IMG/VR virus record: IMGVR_UViG_2565956633_000005
Coordinates: 1 to 42,184 of that record
Direction: 5' to 3' (one strand)
Source: a virus
Lineage: Duplodnaviria > Heunggongvirae > Uroviricota > Caudoviricetes
Length of the DNA stretch: 42,184 nucleotides
How positions within the stretch are numbered: position 1 is the stretch's first letter; the number at the start of each line of letters is the position of its first letter. A program made the position numbers and the translations under genes. The notes below the pieces were generated by a model. It was not told where the DNA came from and did no database searches. It was given only the letters and a program-made list of their open reading frames with translations. This document shows, piece after piece, positions 21,856 through 38,900 of the stretch.

Positions 21856-22262
21856 AGCCTCACCTCCGATTTTTCGGATGGCGCTGTGTGTGTTTGAAAA
21901 GGGTCAGGCTTCACGGGCTGGATTTATCAACAAAGCACGTAGCGGATGATTCCCGTGAGCCTGAAATTGATGAATATGTCTGAAATAACTAGACCATTAG
22001 TAAAACAACTCGATAAATGTGGTTAAATGAGACTACGTTCTCACAACTTAATTAGTACCAATGATTATCAAGCCCTGCCCCTACTGCGGAAAGTTAATTA
22101 ACCCAGAATCACTTGTGTGTAGCCACTGCCGGATAGTGAATCCTTTTGTGAAGGCCAGCAGAAGAGAAAAAGCGAAGAATGTATTAGTAATCGCTCTCGT
22201 TGCTGCTTTTTTAATTTGGATGATTCTCTGAGTTGCCAGTTTTCAATGAAGATAATGCGGGC

Positions 22263-22289
22263 AAAAAAAGCCTGCTCGGACGAACAGGC
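22263..22289 (-). terminator. intrinsic terminator candidate
   Basis: Minus-strand hairpin GCCTG-N10-CAGGC followed by U7 (plus A-run 22263-22269). Confidence 0.45.
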
Positions 22290-22706
22290 ATGAAAAATAA
22301 CAATACCGTCAAGGAGGTGGCGCCGGGTGCCTCCCGGTGGAACAGCCCCAGCCGACTAGTTCCGCGCAAACAAACCTGGACAAAAAAGTTTGACTGGACG
22401 CCCCGCCGCATAGGGGGATTCACCACGAACCAAAAGATAAAATCATCCGGTGACCGGGGCAATATCTAACCGGAACTTTTCAGAATCACTTATTGTTTCC
22501 TGGAGAGTACATGAGCGTTGGTGAATTCACGTGATGCTTTTGGATGAGCGCTGAACCCAAAGGTCAGTATTTTCACACAGCAATTTTGCAAAAAGCAGCG
22601 CCCATTCAAAACCAGGTCGCTTTCCAGTCACTCCGGGGAACCCATCATCGCAGACTGGAAAGCTTTTACTGGAGCGGGCAAAGGAATCGAACCTCTGACG
22701 CGCAGC

Positions 22707-23167: not shown

Positions 23168-23242
23168 TGGCGGGACAGGAAGGATTCGAACCTTCGACCA
23201 TTCGGTTAACAGCCGAACGCACAACCGCTGTGCTTCTGACCC
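23168..23242 (-). tRNA. tRNA-Asn (anticodon GTT)
   Basis: Hand-folded cloverleaf: T arm GAAGG-TTCGAAT-CCTTC, anticodon loop CTGTTAA, G73 discriminator, encoded CCA; deviations A8 and a U-U mismatch in the acceptor stem. Confidence 0.6.
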
Positions 23243-23249
23243 TGAAATG

Positions 23250-23275
23250 AAAAAGCCCCGCACGATGGCGAGGCT
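23250..23275 (-). terminator. hairpin plus U5 between late promoter candidate and tRNA
   Basis: 8-bp stem with one mismatch, then UUUUU on minus-strand transcript. Confidence 0.3.
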
Positions 23276-23328
23276 CTTAATTCTTTGTCGACCTACGAAG
23301 CTATGGCGACGATATCATATTTACATGA

Positions 23329-30946: not shown

Positions 30947-31030
30947 AGTGTTTTCCGTTAACTATATTAACTACGAGTTAAGGTTATATCTTAACTGACA
31001 GTTATGTCAACTCTAATTGATAATTAACAC
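30947..31030. promoter_or_regulatory. OR-like operator region with divergent pR/pRM candidates
   Basis: 21-bp palindrome AGTTAAG-N7-CTTAACT (30976-30996); minus-strand pR TTGACA-16-TATAAC; plus-strand pRM CTGACA-16-GATAAT ending 8 nt before cI ATG. Confidence 0.5.
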
Positions 31031-31798
31031 ATGGTTAAAAAAGACGATTTAAAAGAAGAATTCTCGAAGAGACTTCGCGCTGCATTGCTTGATGCTGGCG
31101 TGGGTGGGCGTGGGCAGGCTGGCAGGATCAGGGAAGCTATGAAGTCCCAAGGGATTGCTGTATCTGAGCCCGGGATCTGGAAGTGGCTTAACGCATCAGC
31201 AATACCAGACCAAACCAATATCCTTGCACTTAGCCGCTGGCTTGGGGTTCGCCCTGAGTGGCTGGAATACGGAAGGAATGATCCTGAACCTGAACTGCAC
31301 AGGGTATCATCCATCCCGCCTGAATCTGAGTGGGGAACTGTCGACGCTTGGGACAAAAATACCCCCCTACCTGACGATGAGGTGGAAGTACCGTTTCTGA
31401 AGGATATCGAGTTTGCGTGTGGTGATGGGCGTGTTCATAGCGAAGATCATAACGGCTTTAAACTGAGGTTCTCCAAGGCAACGCTCAGAAGGGTGGGTGC
31501 AAATAGTGATGGTTCTGGAGTGCTTTGCTTTCCCGCTTCTGGTGACAGCATGGAGCCCGTTATTCCTGACGGCGCAACGGTAGCAGTCGATACAGGCAAC
31601 AAGCGGATTATTGACGGCGAACTCTATGCTATTAACCAGGGCGATTTAAAGCGCATAAAGCAGCTTTATCGAAAGCCTGGTGGGAAGCTATTAATACGAA
31701 GCATCAATCGCGATTATGACGATGAAGAGGCTGATGAGGCAGATGTCGAGATAATCGGTTTTGTGTTCTGGTACTCGGTATTGCGATATCGCCGATAA
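31031..31798 (+). CDS. cI: CI-like repressor (HTH plus S24 LexA-like autopeptidase domain)
   Basis: 255 aa; C-terminal GDSMEPVIPDGATVAV...K motif. Confidence 0.8.
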   Translation: MVKKDDLKEEFSKRLRAALLDAGVGGRGQAGRIREAMKSQGIAVSEPGIWKWLNASAIPDQTNILALSRWLGVRPEWLEYGRNDPEPELHRVSSIPPESEWGTVDAWDKNTPLPDDEVEVPFLKDIEFACGDGRVHSEDHNGFKLRFSKATLRRVGANSDGSGVLCFPASGDSMEPVIPDGATVAVDTGNKRIIDGELYAINQGDLKRIKQLYRKPGGKLLIRSINRDYDDEEADEADVEIIGFVFWYSVLRYRR

Positions 31799-31803
31799 TT
31801 TTA

Positions 31804-31916
31804 GTGGCCTGAAGAGACGTTTGGGTGATAAGAGAATATCTGATAGTAGGCGTGGTTACTTTGCTCTCGGTTGTTGCGATCGTGCTTATGGTGGCCTGAT
31901 GAGACGTTTGGGTGAT
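31804..31916. repeat. 27-bp direct repeat pair
   Basis: GTGGCCTGA(A/T)GAGACGTTTGGGTGAT at 31804-31830 and 31890-31916, one mismatch. Confidence 0.6.
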
Positions 31917-32064
31917 GGGCAAGGTGTTCTGGTCGGCGCATAGCTGGTGAAAAAATTATTTAATGCGGTGTATTGGCTGATTGTAACCCCATGTAACATC
32001 TTGCCGTCACCATTTCGGTGGTTAGATTTTTAATAAAAAAAACAAATGTATAGCAAGGTTTTTT

Positions 32065-32544
32065 ATGGATAAAATTAATTACCCACCCCTGTTTGAGCCA
32101 GGGCTCCATGACATGGATGAAGCTGGATTAAAATCGTATTGTGTCGATTGCTTTCCTTCATCATCCAGGCGAGGCATGCTATACTGTAATTTTATACAGC
32201 TACTCGAATCTATTCGAGAATTATCTGCTCAATATGGCTGTTTTACAGAAATATGGGTTGATGGTTCATACACCACGTCTAAACCAGAGCCTGATGATAT
32301 TGATATTTTGTTGGTATGTGACTATAGCAATATAAACTCAATACCTGTCATGCTTCGGGGCCGCGTCGATAATTTGCTTGACCGAAACTACATCAAACAA
32401 AACTACAAAATTGATGTCCTACTACTCATGAAGAATTTAGATGACCCTAACTATGATTATGAGTACTGGCGTAGCTACTGGCGCGGTTGGTTTGGTTTTG
32501 ATCGCAGTGAAAACCCGAAAGGGTTAGTGAGGATTTTTTTATGA
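32065..32544 (+). CDS. minimal nucleotidyltransferase-like protein (Pol-beta superfamily signature)
   Basis: 159 aa; AAGG RBS; EIWVDGSYTTSKPEPDDIDILLV fits hG[GS]x9-13Dx[DE]; later KIDVLLL acidic strand; AT-rich. Confidence 0.55.
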   Translation: MDKINYPPLFEPGLHDMDEAGLKSYCVDCFPSSSRRGMLYCNFIQLLESIRELSAQYGCFTEIWVDGSYTTSKPEPDDIDILLVCDYSNINSIPVMLRGRVDNLLDRNYIKQNYKIDVLLLMKNLDDPNYDYEYWRSYWRGWFGFDRSENPKGLVRIFL

Positions 32545-33473
32545 ATGATAAATCAATGTTTAAAAATTGCGATAAACGCATTGATTTCATTCAAAAAGAA
32601 GTCGATGCAATGAAGCAAAACAAAACCAGGTCCTTTGCTGACATGCTTCTTTATCGCTCCATGGATTCTCATCTGAGCGATTTGAAGGCCGAAAAATTAA
32701 AGCAAGATAGTCGGCACCCACTTATCGATTTTTTTGAGCTGCGGCTGAAAGGCTCTGAGGTTGACTTTGGCTCTATTCCTTTAGAGCTGCTTGGGGCTAT
32801 TTCAACAAATCTTGCAGCGCTAATACAAAGAGCAACACACAAAATTGCCTCAGGCAAGGACTCAAAAAAAGTTCCCTACGACGTGAAAAGCTCCTTAAAC
32901 CTCAGGCTGGCTGATTTATCCCCTGGGTCTACAAAATTGGGCGTCACCTTCTCTACAGGAATAGCAGAATTAGTAGAAACAGTACCCAGCAAGGCTGTAA
33001 AAGGCATATTCGATTTGTTGTTAAGCGATGACGACAACAACTTCATGAATCACGTCGCTGAAATTGGATACAATTCCACTGTAAGCCTTAAGAGAATCGT
33101 AGAGGAATGCGATAAACACAACTTAACATTTGATGCAAGTTGGACCGGTCCATTTAGTAATGGCACCAAGGTGGCAACTATTGACTCCAATAAAATTAAG
33201 TACTTGGTGAGTAGACTTACATCAACCATTTCATCCCCTCCCATTACTGAAACGGTTACAGGCGAACTGGTCGTTCTATCCAAATATGGGAAGCTGGAGC
33301 TTGATGTTGGTGGTGAACATTTAAAGGCTTCCTATCCGATTGAAATGCTAGATTTAATACAAAAAAAACACAAGGTCGGACAGATTGTTTCTCTTTTAGT
33401 GGAGACTACTGAGATTCACAATGATCGCATAGGTCTGTACCGTAAAAACCATCTTGTTAAATCGGTTCTTTAA
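32541..33473 (+). CDS. hypothetical protein, partner of NTase-like gene
   Basis: 310 aa; ATGA overlap with upstream gene; GTGAGGA RBS; no recognisable motif. Confidence 0.55.
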   Translation: MNDKSMFKNCDKRIDFIQKEVDAMKQNKTRSFADMLLYRSMDSHLSDLKAEKLKQDSRHPLIDFFELRLKGSEVDFGSIPLELLGAISTNLAALIQRATHKIASGKDSKKVPYDVKSSLNLRLADLSPGSTKLGVTFSTGIAELVETVPSKAVKGIFDLLLSDDDNNFMNHVAEIGYNSTVSLKRIVEECDKHNLTFDASWTGPFSNGTKVATIDSNKIKYLVSRLTSTISSPPITETVTGELVVLSKYGKLELDVGGEHLKASYPIEMLDLIQKKHKVGQIVSLLVETTEIHNDRIGLYRKNHLVKSVL

Positions 33474-33480
33474 TATCTCA

Positions 33481-33504
33481 CCCGGCCACCGCGCCGGGTT
33501 TTTT
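33481..33504 (+). terminator. intrinsic terminator
   Basis: CCCGGC-CACCGC-GCCGGG hairpin followed by TTTTTT. Confidence 0.65.
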
Positions 33505-33588
33505 ATTGCCCACCCATAAAGCCATCCTCCATTCTGCCGATAACTATCCAGCCTGAAGCTGATAACAATAACTATCGCAACACTACCT

Positions 33589-33610
33589 GCCCGCCCGTGC
33601 GGGCTTTTTT
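33589..33610 (+). terminator. intrinsic terminator
   Basis: GCCCGC-CCGT-GCGGGC hairpin followed by TTTTTT. Confidence 0.6.
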
Positions 33611-35820: not shown

Positions 35821-35960
35821 GCGAAAGCCCACCGAAGTGGGCCCGCCATGTCCGGCCTCACCGACCAAAGTTACACCGGAAACAACATTAAAACCAAAGT
35901 TAACCCAATGGGCGCTATCAATGGTCCGGGGATTCTAACACCCAAAAATGAGGATCTCAC

Positions 35961-38900
35961 ATGGAATTCTTTAATGTGGTTAAAGCCACTCAGAAATCCG
36001 GAAAGCAAGATGCAGTGGTCTGGTTCACTGCTAAAACCGAGGCTCGCGCCAATCTGATGCTGGATGTTGCGCTGGAAGATGCAGGTATCGAAACAGGTCG
36101 GGGTAAGGACTACGCCAAACCGATTCGCACTGATTTCCCAGTTGTCGACGGCCTGCCGAAAGAAGGTGAAGTTGATTTTACCTGGTGTGATCGCTACGAG
36201 CTTCAGGACGATGGGCGCACCTGGCTGCCAAAAGCCGCTGGTGTGTCTACTGGTTCCGTTGACGCCCCCTACACACCTACTCCGACCGTAATCGTTGAAG
36301 ATGCGACTGCGTCCGAAATTGTCCCGGTTGAAAACCGTACTCCAGCGGTCCGCTTTGCCGTCCATCTGATGAACGATAAATACCAAACCCACGTCACTAA
36401 AGAGCAGCAGTTGGCTGCCAGCGAAATGTCACTGGATGAAGGCAATACATATCTCCATAGCCTGCTTGTGGCAAGGAACGATGTGCCCGCGACCGCCAAA
36501 CTCAGCCTGAATGCTGAGTGGAAAATGATTCGGGCGGTTAAGGACATTTTCACACCCGACGAAGAGCACGAACCAAGATTGATCGCTGCATTCATGTCTG
36601 ACTGGGTGAACACCGATGCCGGTGACCGCAATCAACTGGTAGAAGACTGGCGCAGTGGTAAGTTGCAGTTGCTCAAAACTGAAACCAGCAACGCTGCTGA
36701 CGTTACAACGGGTCAAGATCTCACTGTTGAGGACGGTATCCAGACCGACGAGAACGGCCGGGCAGAAGGTGGCGTCGTTGATGGTGAAGTCGATACCGAA
36801 GAGCAATCCCAGCAGACACAGCAACCGAACCTGATCGTTGTTGCCACCCTGCCATTCCGCCAGCGCGTACTGGCTCAGTTCATCGGTGATGGTGAATATC
36901 TCTATCACATCGACGCAGGGCAGAAAAATGAGATTGTCCGCCTTGAGATGGACACCGATGACGCGTACGTCCAGAACCTGCTGCTGGCAGCTGAGAATGT
37001 GGAAGCATTCAAAAAAGCCATTGAGCACGATATTCATAAAGTCGTGAATGCCGTTAAGAAAGTCTTCCCTGTCGATGGAAAAATCCCTGAACTCGCAACC
37101 TTAATCCAGTTTTTGAAATTGTGGTTCGCTACAGATCACATCGACCGCGGTATCCTCGTTCGCGAATGGGCCGCCGGTAATCGCATCAGTAGTGTGCAGC
37201 GTACTGATTCCGGAACCAATGCCAACGGCGGTTACGTCACTGACCGTGGACCTGATACATACCATACCCTTGACACTCTCGATTTAGAGATTGCATGTGC
37301 CCTTCTGCCTATGGACTTCAACCACTTCGAGATCCCGGGCAGCATTCTTCGTCGCGCTAAAGAAATCGTGACCAAAAAAGAAGAACCATGGAAATCATGG
37401 AGCAACATCCTGCGCAATCAGCCAGGCGTTCTGGGTGTTAACCGCACGGCTATTTTTAACCTGGTACGTATCGCACCGGAAAATATTCATTTAACTCCTG
37501 TCGCTCACCTGGAATTTGTTAACCAGACCATGACAGCCGCGTTCAATTCCGCGGTCGAGTTATTGCCGTTGCATGAGGCTGAACCCGCAGCACAGGAAAT
37601 TCCCCAACCTGAAGGTAAGGAGTCTCCGCGCAAATCCTTCTGCACTCACGAAGAGAACCTGCAACGCGTGCGTGAAGAAGGAGCACGCCGCCGCGCAGAG
37701 GAAGCGGCAGCACAACCGCAGAAAGTCGAACAAGAACTGGTTAAAAATGTCGGCAACGGAATATTCGACGTTACGGCTTTGCTGCAGAACTCAGCAACTC
37801 ATGGCACGAAAAAGGCTACGGAGACCACCAGCAATGTGCAGGTTCAAGAAACTGTCAGTGATGAAAAACAAGCTGGTGATGAAGTACAGCCAGGCGAAAG
37901 CAGTCTGGAGTCTGGTGAAGAGTCAGATACCAGCCAGAAGGACGATGTAAACCAGAATACGGATTCTGTCGCCAAAAATAGCGATTCTGTAAGCCAAACC
38001 GAACCAGTTGCAGCACAAACCGAGCCAGAAGCGCAATCTGACGAACCGGCTGTTGTTTATCCCGCTTATTTCGAGCCAGGCCGCTATGAAGGGCTGCCAA
38101 ACGAGGTTTACCACGCCGCCAACGGCATCAGCTCAACCCAGGTGAAAGATGCGCGCGTTTCGCTGATGTACTTCAATGCGCGCCACGTAGAGAAAACCAT
38201 CGTCAAAGAGCGCTCAGCGGTGCTGGACATGGGCAACTTGGTGCATGCGCTGGCGTTGCAGCCTGAACTACTGGACGCAGAATTCAGCGTTGAACCGGTG
38301 ATCCCTGAAGGCGCATTCACAACGGCCGCGACCCTGCGCGCCTTTATCGATGAGCACAATGCCAGCCTGCCGGCGCTGCTGTCTGCCGACGACATCAAGG
38401 TGTTACTGGAAGAGTACAACGCCACCCTGCCGCCGCAGGTTCCGCTTGGCGCTAACCTGGAAGAAACGGCACAGAACTATATGGCGCTGCCAGCTGACTT
38501 CCAGCGTATTGATGGTGACCAGAAGCAGACGGCGACGGCAATGAAGGCATGCATTAAAGAGTACAACGCCACCCTGCCGCCGCCGGTTAAAACCAGCGGC
38601 AGCCGTGACGCGCTGCTGGAGCAGTTGGCAATCATCAACCCTGACCTTGTGGCTCAGGAAGCACAGAAACCGGCACCACTGAAAGTGTCCGGTACCAAAG
38701 CAGACATGATCCAGGCCGTGAAGGCAGTCAAACCAGATGCCGTATTTGCCGACGAACTGCTGGATGCCTGGCGCGATAACCCGGAAGGAAAAGTGCTGGT
38801 CACCCGCCAGCAGCTGAGCACCGCGCTGAATATTCAAAAAGCGCTTCTGGCACACCCGACCGCCGGCATGCTGCTGACCCACCCTAGCCGAGCCGTTGAG

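What the first reader, a model, noticed from the sequence alone, without database searches (positions are those of the whole stretch)
31804..31916. 27-bp direct repeat pair between cI and the accessory operon
Seen in sequence: GTGGCCTGA(A/T)GAGACGTTTGGGTGAT occurs twice 86 bp apart, in the gap between cI stop and the NTase operon promoter region. Inference: insertion-junction scar of the accessory operon, or paired binding sites regulating its expression.
Basis: seen in the sequence. Interest (0 to 1): 0.4.

Follow-up and report, generated by a model that had tools for sequence, protein, structure and literature searches.

The report
Repressor-gene end relics bracketing tiny ORF
The two repeats are leftover copies of the last 26 bases of a lambda-type phage repressor gene; together they form the ends of a 113-bp module, probably encoding a 24-residue membrane peptide, that sits at a known gene-swapping hotspot in lambda-like prophages.

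Summary
The repeat is real: 31804-31829 and 31891-31916, 25 of 26 bases identical, none expected by chance. Each copy is homologous to the last seven codons plus stop of lambda-type cI (QWPEETFG-stop). Here both lie after the TAA stop of a phi80-like cI, so they are untranslated relics.

They were not made by insertion of the downstream operon. The same 113-bp unit (relic, 61-nt spacer, relic) occurs in phi80, in phi80-carrying lab strains such as DH5alpha and DH10B, and in about 85 viral or metagenome contigs. In the 57 loci whose flanks I clustered it lies between at least 12 repressor-side flanks and 24 cargo flanks. Pairwise identity jumps from about 0.3 to about 1.0 at 31803 and falls back by 31916-31919. 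In this window copy 2 is the joint between phi80-like DNA and an mEpX1-like candidate defence operon (PDC-M63).

The unit holds an unannotated, very hydrophobic 24-codon ORF (31825-31899). Its boundaries are constant. Its start overlaps the stop of lambda-type cI where copy 1 is still coding. Most of its polymorphisms fall at third codon positions. Translation is inferred, not shown.

"Paired binding sites" is not supported: the copies do not co-vary and copy 2 decays. Verdict: recombination relics at the known cI-N mosaic hotspot, plus a plausible new small membrane-protein gene. Moderate interest.

The parts
30995..31024 (+). PRM-like sigma-70 promoter (CTGACA, 18-nt spacer, GATAAT) ending 7 nt before the cI ATG. 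It is the likely source of the lysogenic transcript that runs through cI, the repeat unit and the cargo.
   Evidence: Consensus scan, 10 of 12 matches. Assignment as PRM is an inference from its position and from the annotated PRM of phi80.
31031..31798 (+). cI repressor gene (255-aa ORF, Peptidase_S24 domain) with TAA stop at 31796-31798. The part encoding the C-terminal domain is phi80-like; the N-terminal part is not.
   Evidence: ORF list. Pfam PF00717, E = 5e-19. 88% nucleotide identity to phi80 over 31312-31915 only.
31804..31829 (+). Repeat copy 1: an untranslated relic of the last 7 codons plus stop of a lambda-type cI (TGG CCT GAA GAG ACG TTT GGG TGA). It carries the Shine-Dalgarno-like motif and the start codon of the small ORF. 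The conservation island begins at 31803.
   Evidence: 26 of 27 bases identical to the lambda cI end. It is the genuine coding end of cI in 6 related loci. The island edge is shown.
31825..31899 (+). Unannotated 24-codon ORF with a GTG start, encoding (M)IREYLIVGVVTLLSVVAIVLMVA and ending in TGA. phi80 and many relatives have ATG at 31828-31830 (MREYL...). It starts in copy 1 and stops in copy 2.
   Evidence: Read from the sequence. Boundaries are constant in 53 of 53 loci. Polymorphisms are listed. GRAVY is 2.26, the highest of 172 ORFs of 20-30 codons in the window. It is not annotated in any record searched.
31830..31890 (+). 61-nt spacer, the body of the small ORF. It is nearly invariant in all relatives.
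31891..31916 (+). Repeat copy 2: a second relic of a lambda-type cI end. Its first 9 nt are the last two codons and the stop of the small ORF. Its 3' half is variable among relatives. In this window it is the crossover zone between phi80-like and mEpX1-like DNA.
   Evidence: The phi80 match ends at 31915, and the mEpX1 match (99.5%) starts at 31891. Column identity falls to 0.34-0.89 over 31904-31916.
31917..31946 (+). Lambda-type 'post-cI' segment (GGGCAAGGTGTTCTGGTCGGCGCATAGCTG). In lambda, 434, HK544, VT1-Sakai, SfI and mEpX1 this sequence directly follows the cI stop codon.
   Evidence: window 31891-31946 is 94.6% identical to lambda.
32065..33473 (+). Two-gene cargo: a DUF6932 protein (32065-32544) and a 310-aa partner (32541-33473). 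Together they match PADLOC candidate defence system PDC-M63 A and B. The cargo sits where lambda has rexAB and phi80 has gene 40A.
   Evidence: Pfam PF22014, E = 2e-24. PADLOC PDC-M63A E = 4e-41 and PDC-M63B E = 8e-45. 99.5% identical to mEpX1 gp42/gp41.
33480..33604 (+). Two strong intrinsic-terminator-like hairpins (33480-33499 and 33589-33604) that close the cI, small ORF and cargo unit. They are analogous to Timm of lambda and HK544.

Best explanation
Both repeat copies are vestiges of the 3' end of a lambda-family repressor gene: the codons for W-P-E/D-E-T-F-G plus the TGA stop. In this prophage the working repressor is a phi80-like cI that ends at TAA 31796-31798. Copy 1 follows it as dead coding sequence, and copy 2 lies 87 nt further on.

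Together the copies are the two ends of a 113-bp unit (31803 to about 31915). This unit travels as one block among lambdoid prophages and always lies immediately 3' of a repressor gene, in the cI-to-N region already known as a mosaic hotspot.

Shown here. The homology to cI ends is direct. The unit is constant next to many different repressors and cargos. Its edges are sharp and coincide with the repeats. In this window copy 2 is the joint between phi80-like DNA and the mEpX1-like PDC-M63 operon.

Inferred, step 1. Each relic gives 26 nt of homology to any phage with a lambda-type cI end, or about 56 nt when the adjoining post-cI segment is included. Red, RecT, Erf or RecA recombination, which needs about 30 bp, can therefore swap the repressor on the left or the cargo on the right.

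Inferred, step 2. The unit persists because it carries a small gene, a 24-codon ORF (31825-31899) encoding one hydrophobic helix. Copy 1 supplies its ribosome-binding region (AAGAGA, or GAGGTG in the other haplotype, 5-10 nt upstream) and its GTG/ATG start. Where cI is lambda-type, that start overlaps the cI stop (GTGA or TGATG), which suggests translational coupling. Copy 2 supplies its last two codons and its stop.

Inferred, step 3. The peptide would be made in lysogens from the PRM transcript together with cI. I expect it to be a small inner-membrane protein, possibly acting in superinfection exclusion or modulation of a membrane protein. Its function is unknown.
For: Homology to cI ends: lambda and mEpX1 cI end with CAG TGG CCT GAA GAG ACG TTT GGC TGA followed by TCGGCAAGGTGTTCTGGTCGGCGCATAGCTG. 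blastn gives 26 of 27 identity for copy 1 and 94.6% over 56 nt for copy 2 plus the post-cI segment. The same end is shared by phages of other immunities, including 434, VT1-Sakai, HK544 and SfI.

Portable unit: 54 IMG/VR contigs, phi80, E. coli CB7286, one Enterobacter sichuanensis locus and 31 metagenome contigs hold the unit. Scans anchored only on two relics 52-82 nt apart returned only this one spacer. There are at least 12 left-flank classes, at least 24 right-flank classes and about 40 combinations. Pairwise column identity is about 0.3 up to 31802, 0.96-1.0 from 31803, and about 0.3 again from 31916-31919, across 55 distinct contexts.

Mosaic joint in the window: the phi80 match ends at 31915 and the mEpX1 match starts at 31891. 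CB7286 has a third type of cI joined at copy 1.

Copy 1 still coding in some relatives: in 6 loci it is the in-frame end of an intact lambda-type cI (...VVASQWPEETFG-stop), and the TGA overlaps the ORF start.

Small ORF: start and stop are at the same place in 53 of 53 loci. No other frame on either strand has constant boundaries. Polymorphic sites 31830, 31839, 31878, 31884, 31890 and 31896 are all third codon positions. Four are synonymous and two are Met/Ile changes. One further site (31885) is a Leu-to-Ile change. Counting the outlier contig L040, 7 of 10 variable sites are third positions (binomial p about 0.02). The ORF is the most hydrophobic of 172 ORFs of similar size in the window.

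Related small genes at the same site: in relatives the slot right after copy 2 holds genes of the YoaK small-membrane-protein family (NF033821, E = 9e-18). In L013 and L038 these are followed by a third relic and a terminator.

Literature: the cI-N region is described as a mosaic hotspot co-transcribed with the repressor (PMC8585504, citing Degnan 2007; PMC3564112). The minimal homology for Red and RecA recombination is given as about 30 bp (PMC2327257).
Against: There is no expression evidence. The peptide is not annotated in any phage or E. coli record, is absent from the 15-billion-protein collection, and matches no Pfam, NCBIfam or PHROG family.

The family is nearly invariant at the nucleotide level. 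The codon-position test therefore rests on only 7-10 sites. The same sites are also wobble positions of one antisense frame, although that frame has no constant start or stop.

22 of the 55 units tabulated, including this window, have ATA instead of ATG at 31828-31830 and would depend on the GTG start.

The Shine-Dalgarno-like motif in this window's haplotype (AAGAGA) is weak.

How the second relic first came to lie 3' of the ORF is unexplained. The spacer shows no convincing homology to cI coding sequence.

Recombination through the relics is inferred from breakpoint positions. It was not observed.
Confidence: 0.7

Rival explanations
1. The unit is a pure recombination fossil with no gene. 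Two leftover cI ends and the 61 nt between them are neutral DNA. They hitch-hike because they lie between the selected repressor and the selected cargo. They look conserved only because the block has spread recently by recombination.
For: The unit is almost invariant, including most wobble positions, as expected for a young, rapidly exchanged block. No divergent homologues were found even with a peptide-degenerate pattern. There is no annotation and no family match. 22 of the 55 units tabulated lack the ATG.
Against: Conservation stops at the ORF's stop codon, while the rest of copy 2 varies. Apart from one L-to-I site and the outlier contig L040, the variable sites inside the ORF are third codon positions. 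The ORF is intact with fixed ends in 53 of 53 loci, is the most hydrophobic short ORF in the window, and its start overlaps the cI stop in lambda-type contexts. Recognised small membrane-protein genes (YoaK family) occupy the adjacent slot in relatives.
Confidence: 0.22
2. The two copies are paired binding sites (iteron- or operator-like) for a regulator that controls the downstream accessory operon.
For: There are two near-identical 26-mers 87 nt apart, about eight helical turns, upstream of the operon.
Against: The copies do not co-vary. Identity between them ranges from 17 to 26 of 26 across 55 contexts, with mixed haplotype combinations. The 3' half of copy 2 is poorly conserved. The pair sits upstream of at least 24 unrelated cargos, and in some loci directly upstream of a terminator. 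No promoter-like site lies between 31800 and 32065. In lambda-type phages the same sequence is simply the coding end of cI.
Confidence: 0.03
3. The repeats are a target-site duplication or att-like scar made when the DUF6932/PDC-M63 operon, or a small mobile element, inserted.
For: Direct repeats flank a discrete segment. Copy 2 abuts the operon's left boundary.
Against: The operon lies outside the repeat pair, not between the copies. phi80 has the identical pair with a different downstream gene. The 61-nt interior has no terminal inverted repeats and no transposase or integrase. 26 nt is far longer than known target-site duplications (established knowledge). The repeat sequence has an obvious other origin, the cI 3' end.
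Confidence: 0.02
4. The unit is a cis-acting nucleic-acid element rather than a gene. Candidates are a structured RNA or ribozyme (copy 2 contains CUGAUGAG), a processing site in the PRM transcript, or a DNA self-immunity element like the aba element next to bstA.
For: There is strong nucleotide-level conservation. A precedent exists for a 63-bp DNA element just downstream of a prophage repressor (aba, PMC8585504). The CUGAUGA motif superficially resembles a hammerhead core.
Against: No Rfam family matches at E <= 10 within the repeat unit; the four weak hits in 31600-32200 all lie outside it. The predicted RNA fold is no better than shuffles (z = 0.10). No inverted repeats are present. The unit is not tied to any one cargo, as a self-immunity element would be.
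Confidence: 0.03

Closest known systems
3' end of lambda cI plus the cI-rexA intergenic start (lambda 37196-37251), as shared by lambda, 434, HK544, VT1-Sakai, SfI and mEpX1
   Same: The sequence is the same: 26 of 27 for copy 1, and 94.6% over 56 nt for copy 2 plus the following segment. The position is the same, at the end of the repressor gene and in front of the variable lysogenic cargo.
   Different: Here neither copy is translated as part of cI. There are two copies, and a 61-nt insert lies between them. Lambda has a single, coding copy.
cI-to-N mosaic hotspot and moron slot of lambdoid phages (rexAB in lambda, hex in 434, stk in 933W, bstA in BTP1; Degnan et al. 2007 as cited in PMC8585504; PMC3564112)
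   Same: The genomic position is the same, and the unit is presumably co-transcribed with the repressor from PRM. Cargo is highly variable, with at least 24 kinds next to this unit, including candidate defence system PDC-M63 in this window.
   Different: Known descriptions concern the cargo genes. In the papers I could read I found no description of the constant 113-bp relic-ORF-relic unit at the left edge of the slot.
Homologous or homeologous recombination traces ('shoulders') flanking mosaics in lambdoid phages (Martinsohn et al. 2008, PMC2327257; De Paepe et al. 2014, PMC3945230)
   Same: Short patches of homology lie at the borders of exchanged segments. Their length is close to the ~30-bp minimum quoted for Red and RecA recombination.
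   Different: Those studies detect statistical traces genome-wide. Here a specific, named patch (the repressor 3' end) recurs at both borders of one tiny module in dozens of contexts.
YoaK-family and other small single-helix membrane proteins of Enterobacteria (NCBIfam NF033821); hydrophobic peptides of type I toxin-antitoxin systems
   Same: The predicted product is 23-24 residues, almost entirely one hydrophobic helix after a short charged N-terminus. YoaK-family genes lie in the adjacent slot in related prophages.
   Different: There is no sequence match to YoaK or to any other family. No antisense RNA or promoter was found. Translation and toxicity are untested.

Membership tests
Relic of a lambda-family repressor (cI) gene 3' end | Nucleotide homology to the terminal codons plus stop of lambda-type cI (TGG CCT GAA GAG ACG TTT GGN TGA) | tested here: met
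   Copy 1 is 26 of 27 identical to lambda 2500-2526 of L004. Copy 2 plus the downstream segment is 94.6% identical over 56 nt. The same end is present in mEpX1, 434, HK544, VT1-Sakai and SfI.
Relic of a lambda-family repressor (cI) gene 3' end | Located directly 3' of a repressor gene but not part of its reading frame (a vestige rather than a functional end) | tested here: met
   cI stops at TAA 31796-31798, before copy 1. Stop codons lie in the cI frame upstream of copy 2 (read). In 6 relatives copy 1 is still the in-frame end of cI.
Mosaic junction or homologous-recombination linker | Homology between otherwise unrelated genomes begins and ends at the element | tested here: met
   The conservation island runs from 31803 to about 31915 with flanks at random-level identity, across 55 contexts. 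In the window the phi80 and mEpX1 matches meet in copy 2.
Mosaic junction or homologous-recombination linker | Recombination actually initiates in the element | not testable with these tools
   This needs phage crosses or recombineering assays with and without the relics.
Transposon or insertion-sequence target-site duplication | Short direct repeats (usually 2-14 bp) flanking an element that has terminal inverted repeats and/or a transposase | tested here: not met
   The repeat is 26 nt. The 61-nt interior has no inverted repeats and no recombinase gene. The operon lies outside the repeats.
Paired operator or iteron sites | Both copies conserved and co-varying; placed at a promoter or origin | tested here: not met
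   The copies are 17-26 of 26 identical with mixed haplotypes. The 3' half of copy 2 has column identity of 0.34-0.89. No promoter-like site is adjacent.
Hammerhead or other Rfam RNA family | Match to a covariance model; stable structure | tested here: not met
   No family matches at E <= 10 within 31800-31920. The fold z-score is 0.10.
Small membrane protein gene (sORF of 50 aa or fewer) | Intact ORF with conserved start and stop, and a coding-type substitution pattern | tested here: inconclusive
   Boundaries are constant in 53 of 53 loci. 6 of 7 variable sites, or 7 of 10 with L040, are at third codon positions. However, there are few sites, the family is nearly invariant, and one antisense frame shares the same wobble phase.
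Small membrane protein gene (sORF of 50 aa or fewer) | Evidence of translation (ribosome profiling, tagging or mass spectrometry) | not testable with these tools
   No paper holds the peptide sequence. It is not in the protein collection.
YoaK family (NF033821) | Score above the NCBIfam cut-off | tested here: not met
   The window's peptide gives no YoaK hit. The neighbouring 32-aa ORFs in L013, L007 and L023 do (63.6 bits against a cut-off of 32).
Type I toxin-antitoxin | Small hydrophobic toxin plus an overlapping or adjacent antisense RNA with its own promoter | tested here: inconclusive
   The hydrophobic peptide is present. There is no minus-strand promoter-like site in 31800-31950, and the right flanks are too variable to carry a conserved antisense promoter. 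Toxicity was not tested.

The most novel reading that the evidence does not exclude
Copies of the 26-nt repressor-end sequence act as standard connectors of a small-gene cassette system at the lysogenic PRM operon of lambdoid prophages. Each connector would supply the stop codon for the cassette before it. It would also supply a ribosome-binding site and start context for what follows, and about 26 nt of homology for recombinase-mediated shuffling. Tiny membrane-peptide genes could then be stacked or swapped behind any repressor: the 24-codon ORF here, YoaK-like genes, and the L008 peptide. The 24-residue peptide, which is present unannotated in phi80 and therefore in DH5alpha, DH10B and TOP10, would be a real lysogen-expressed inner-membrane protein with a role in exclusion or host modulation.
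Probability: 0.25. Interest if true: 0.55.

Novelty: new member of a known kind. Interest (0 to 1): 0.35.

Why it matters
The result explains a conspicuous repeat as a readable fossil record of module swapping. It pins one border of the cI-N accessory or defence hotspot to a specific 26-nt sequence at single-base resolution. That helps when delimiting cargo islands in prophages, here a PDC-M63 candidate defence system. It also gives a concrete substrate for testing short-homology recombination by phage recombinases.

It also flags an unannotated, conserved 24-codon hydrophobic ORF co-located with the repressor. The ORF is carried by phi80 and therefore by the most widely used E. coli cloning strains. 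If it is translated, it adds to the list of prophage small membrane proteins expressed in lysogens. None of this overturns current views of lambdoid mosaicism.

Tried and rejected
1. Ribozyme or structured RNA. The CUGAUGAG motif in copy 2 suggested a hammerhead. Rfam gave no hit within the repeat unit at either the gathering or the E <= 10 threshold, and the fold was no better than shuffles. Rejected.

2. Spacer derived from a tandem duplication of the cI 3' coding region. Only a 10-mer (GGTTGTTGCG) is shared with some lambda-type cI genes. Shuffle tests were marginal (3-15 of 500) for four targets and null for lambda, mEpX1 and L027. Inconclusive, not used.

3. Genome-contig scan with GGCCTGANGAG N{66,86} GGCCTGANGAG. 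The pattern was too loose. Only Enterobacter sichuanensis L076 was a true unit.

4. Peptide-degenerate DNA pattern in viral contigs, to find synonymously diverged homologues. It returned only the same loci.

5. Protein-level searches for the peptide. The search for homologous proteins refuses queries under 40 aa. Pfam, NCBIfam and PHROGs gave nothing meaningful. The exact look-up was negative, and so was the full-text sequence search.

6. Antisense ORFs 31704-31922 and 31801-31941 on the minus strand. One is open across the unit and shares the wobble phase of the small ORF. However, its start and stop fall in the variable flanks, and several contexts have no start codon. Rejected as genes.

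7. Degnan et al. 2007, the key paper on this hotspot, is not held. I could not check whether the conserved cI-end patch is described there.

Full report
OBSERVATION. The 26-mer GTGGCCTGA(A/T)GAGACGTTTGGGTGAT occurs at 31804-31829 and 31891-31916 and nowhere else in the window, even with 3 mismatches allowed. Shuffles give 0.00 expected matches. The repeat finder extends the pair to 31 nt at 90% identity with a period of 87 nt. Copy 1 begins 5 nt after the TAA stop (31796-31798) of a 255-codon S24-peptidase repressor gene, cI, at 31031-31798. Copy 2 lies about 150 nt before a DUF6932 gene at 32065-32544, which is followed by a 310-codon gene at 32541-33473.

WHAT THE REPEAT IS. blastn of 31700-32100 against phage genomes split the region into two parts. 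Bases 31700-31915 match phi80 at 97%, covering the end of cI and both repeat copies. Bases 31891-32100 match phage mEpX1 at 98.6%, starting exactly at copy 2. In addition, 31891-31948 matches the end of cI in lambda, 434, HK544, VT1-Sakai, SfI and others at about 94-95%.

Reading those loci shows why. Lambda and mEpX1 cI end with CAG TGG CCT GAA GAG ACG TTT GGC TGA (Q W P E E T F G stop), followed by TCGGCAAGGTGTTCTGGTCGGCGCATAGCTG. The repeat is therefore the last seven codons plus stop of a lambda-type repressor gene. Copy 2 is still attached to the lambda-type 'post-cI' segment (window 31917-31946).

In this window both copies are untranslated, because the phi80-like cI has already terminated. 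phi80 itself has the same two copies and the same spacer, and then diverges into its gene 40A. E. coli CB7286 has a third kind of repressor joined to copy 1, followed by the same spacer, copy 2 and the DUF6932 operon.

THE PAIR IS THE TWO ENDS OF A PORTABLE 113-BP UNIT. A 22-mer from the spacer found 54 IMG/VR contigs. Two scans required only two relics 52-82 nt apart, with any spacer allowed. They returned 43 viral and 31 metagenome contigs, and every one carried this same spacer.

Clustering the flanks of 57 loci gave at least 12 left (repressor-side) classes, at least 24 right (cargo-side) classes, and about 40 combinations. In an ungapped, anchored comparison of 55 distinct contexts, pairwise column identity behaves as follows. 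It is about 0.3 up to 31802 and 0.96-1.0 from 31803 to 31903. It declines over 31904-31915 and is about 0.3 again from 31916-31919. The conserved island is thus delimited by the two repeat copies.

The upstream genes end in at least seven different ways, for example ...VLRYRR...PQTYRKHG...IAYNKL and ...ETKMRLV. In those contexts copy 1 is a relic that follows the stop codon. In six loci, however, copy 1 is the genuine in-frame end of an intact lambda-type cI (...VVASQWPEETFG-stop).

The downstream cargos include the following:
- KilA-N/Bro-like proteins
- phi80 40A-like proteins
- HipA-like kinases
- ParA-like ATPases
- HicAB- and HigBA-like pairs
- bare terminators
- in this window, a pair matching PADLOC candidate defence system PDC-M63 A/B (E = 4e-41 and 8e-45)

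Some right flanks also keep a fragment of a P22-c2-like repressor end (GTAGAGACGAAGCTGCGGCTGGT). This shows that ends of several repressor types are left behind at this site.

The pair is not the insertion scar of this operon. Copy 2 is nevertheless the joint at which the operon-bearing mEpX1-like segment (31891-33517, 99.5% identical) meets phi80-like DNA.

NOT PAIRED BINDING SITES, NOT AN RNA MOTIF. Across the 55 contexts the two copies are 17-26 of 26 identical to each other, and their haplotypes combine freely. The bases GTTTGGGTGAT are invariant in copy 1 but variable in copy 2. No promoter-like site lies between 31800 and 32065. The only good promoter-like match nearby is a PRM-like site at 30995-31024, and strong terminators follow the cargo at 33480-33499 and 33589-33604. 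Rfam gives nothing for the repeat region, and the RNA fold of 31790-31950 is no better than shuffles (z = 0.10).

A SMALL ORF INSIDE THE UNIT. The unit reads GTG ATA AGA GAA TAT CTG ATA GTA GGC GTG GTT ACT TTG CTC TCG GTT GTT GCG ATC GTG CTT ATG GTG GCC TGA (31825-31899). This encodes (M)IREYLIVGVVTLLSVVAIVLMVA. phi80 and 33 of the 55 units tabulated have ATG in place of ATA at 31828-31830.

Six lines of evidence support it as a gene.
1. Its start and stop are in the same place in 53 of 53 loci. Every other frame on either strand has boundaries that wander into the variable flanks, or lacks a start codon.
2. Where copy 1 is a real cI end, the cI TGA (31826-31828) overlaps the ORF start as GTGA or TGATG. 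This is the classic arrangement for translational coupling.
3. Copy 1 provides a Shine-Dalgarno-like motif 5-10 nt upstream: GAGGTG in one haplotype, and the weaker AAGAGA in this window.
4. The polymorphic sites inside the ORF are 31830, 31839, 31878, 31884, 31890 and 31896. All are third codon positions. Four are synonymous and two are Met/Ile changes. One further site, 31885, is a Leu-to-Ile change (codon phase assigned by hand). Including three changes in the outlier contig L040, 7 of 10 sites are third positions (binomial p about 0.02).
5. Its GRAVY of 2.26 is the highest of 172 ORFs of 20-30 codons in the window (mean -0.11, sd 0.72).
6. In related prophages the slot right after copy 2 holds other tiny hydrophobic genes. 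One type is a 32-codon ORF that matches the YoaK small-membrane-protein family (63.6 bits against a cut-off of 32). L008 has a 28-codon ORF. Each of these ends in the out-of-frame TGA of a further relic copy, and in L013 and L038 a terminator follows.

There are caveats. The family is almost invariant, so the substitution test is thin. The same sites are wobble positions of one antisense frame. No divergent homologues were found. The peptide is unannotated in phi80 and in the 64 E. coli genomes that carry it, which are mostly phi80-bearing laboratory strains such as DH5alpha, DH10B, TOP10 and JM83. It is absent from the 15-billion-protein collection. It matches no protein family and appears in no searchable paper. 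Translation is inferred, not shown.

HOW IT MOST LIKELY WORKS. The region between cI and N is a recognised hotspot of mosaic diversity, and its genes are co-transcribed with the repressor from PRM. Examples are rexAB, hex, stk and bstA (PMC8585504, citing Degnan et al. 2007; PMC3564112). Red- and RecA-mediated recombination need about 30 bp of homology (PMC2327257), and short homology patches flank many lambdoid mosaics (PMC2327257, PMC3945230).

I infer three things. First, repressor-gene ends left behind by earlier module replacements serve as those patches. A crossover in copy 1 changes the repressor, and a crossover in copy 2 or the post-cI segment changes the cargo. Second, the block between the copies is retained because it carries a small lysogen-expressed membrane peptide. 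Third, the window's arrangement is most simply read as one PRM transcription unit: a phi80-like cI C-terminal domain, then relic, ORF, relic, the lambda-type post-cI segment, mEpX1-type PDC-M63, and terminators.

How the second relic first came to lie 3' of the ORF is not explained. A test for derivation of the spacer from cI coding sequence was inconclusive.

COMPARISON AND NOVELTY. The repeat sequence itself is known DNA, the end of lambda cI. Its setting, the cI-N hotspot, is also known. In the sources I could read, two things were not described. One is the constant 113-bp relic-ORF-relic unit found across dozens of repressor and cargo combinations. The other is its putative 24-residue peptide.

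I class the finding as a new member of known kinds: a recombination relic plus a candidate small membrane-protein gene. Interest is moderate to low (0.35). The most novel reading still open is a connector-based cassette system for lysogen-expressed micro-proteins. I give that a probability of about 0.25.

Noticed in passing
window 31031-31798: The cI gene is a hybrid relative to phi80. Only 31312-31915, the part encoding the C-terminal domain, matches phi80, at 88% nucleotide identity. The N-terminal DNA-binding part has no phi80 match, which implies a different immunity specificity on a phi80-like oligomerisation and cleavage domain.
   Followed up: partly
window 32065-33473: The 'NTase operon' matches PADLOC candidate defence system PDC-M63: protein A is DUF6932 (E = 4e-41) and protein B is the 310-aa partner (E = 8e-45). 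It is 99.5% identical to mEpX1 gp42/gp41 and occupies the rexAB slot. No paper in the library mentions DUF6932.
   Followed up: partly
L013 and L038 (about window-equivalent 31927-32050); L007, L023; L008: Related prophages carry YoaK-family 32-codon genes (NF033821), or another 28-codon hydrophobic ORF (MDMRKYLAIIIAAALAALIVWQWVLDVG), directly after repeat copy 2. Each of these ORFs stops in a further, more diverged relic copy. This gives relic, sORF, relic, sORF, relic arrays.
   Followed up: partly
L012, L026, L042, L036, L022 and others, right flank of copy 2: After a truncated copy 2 these loci carry GTAGAGACGAAGCTGCGGCTGGT. In L012, L013 and L050 this same sequence is the coding end of a P22-c2-like repressor (...VETKLRLV-stop). 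Relics of more than one repressor type therefore accumulate at this site.
   Followed up: partly
E. coli laboratory strains (DH5alpha, DH10B, TOP10, JM83, XL10-Gold, EPI300, NEB 5-alpha and NEB 10-beta): All carry the unit at 98.9% identity through their phi80 lacZdeltaM15 remnant, with no annotated feature under it. Only about five natural E. coli genomes among 5,426 have it.
   Followed up: yes
window 22259-22451(-), 23171-23242(-), 23252-23325(-), 35822-35919(-): Rfam hits above the gathering score: STnc100 sRNA, a tRNA, an isrJ-like Hfq-binding RNA next to the tRNA, and an isrB-like RNA inside the prophage early-left region.
   Followed up: no
window 31915-31950: The ATG supplied by copy 2 (31915-31917) opens an 11-codon ORF (MGKVFWSAHSW) across the lambda-type post-cI segment. 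Lambda itself lacks this ATG, so it is probably meaningless (read).
   Followed up: no
window 32003-32022: A weak terminator-like hairpin (6 pairs, 3 of them G-C) followed by a T-rich tract lies between the repeat unit and the DUF6932 start. It could attenuate read-through from PRM into the cargo.
   Followed up: no
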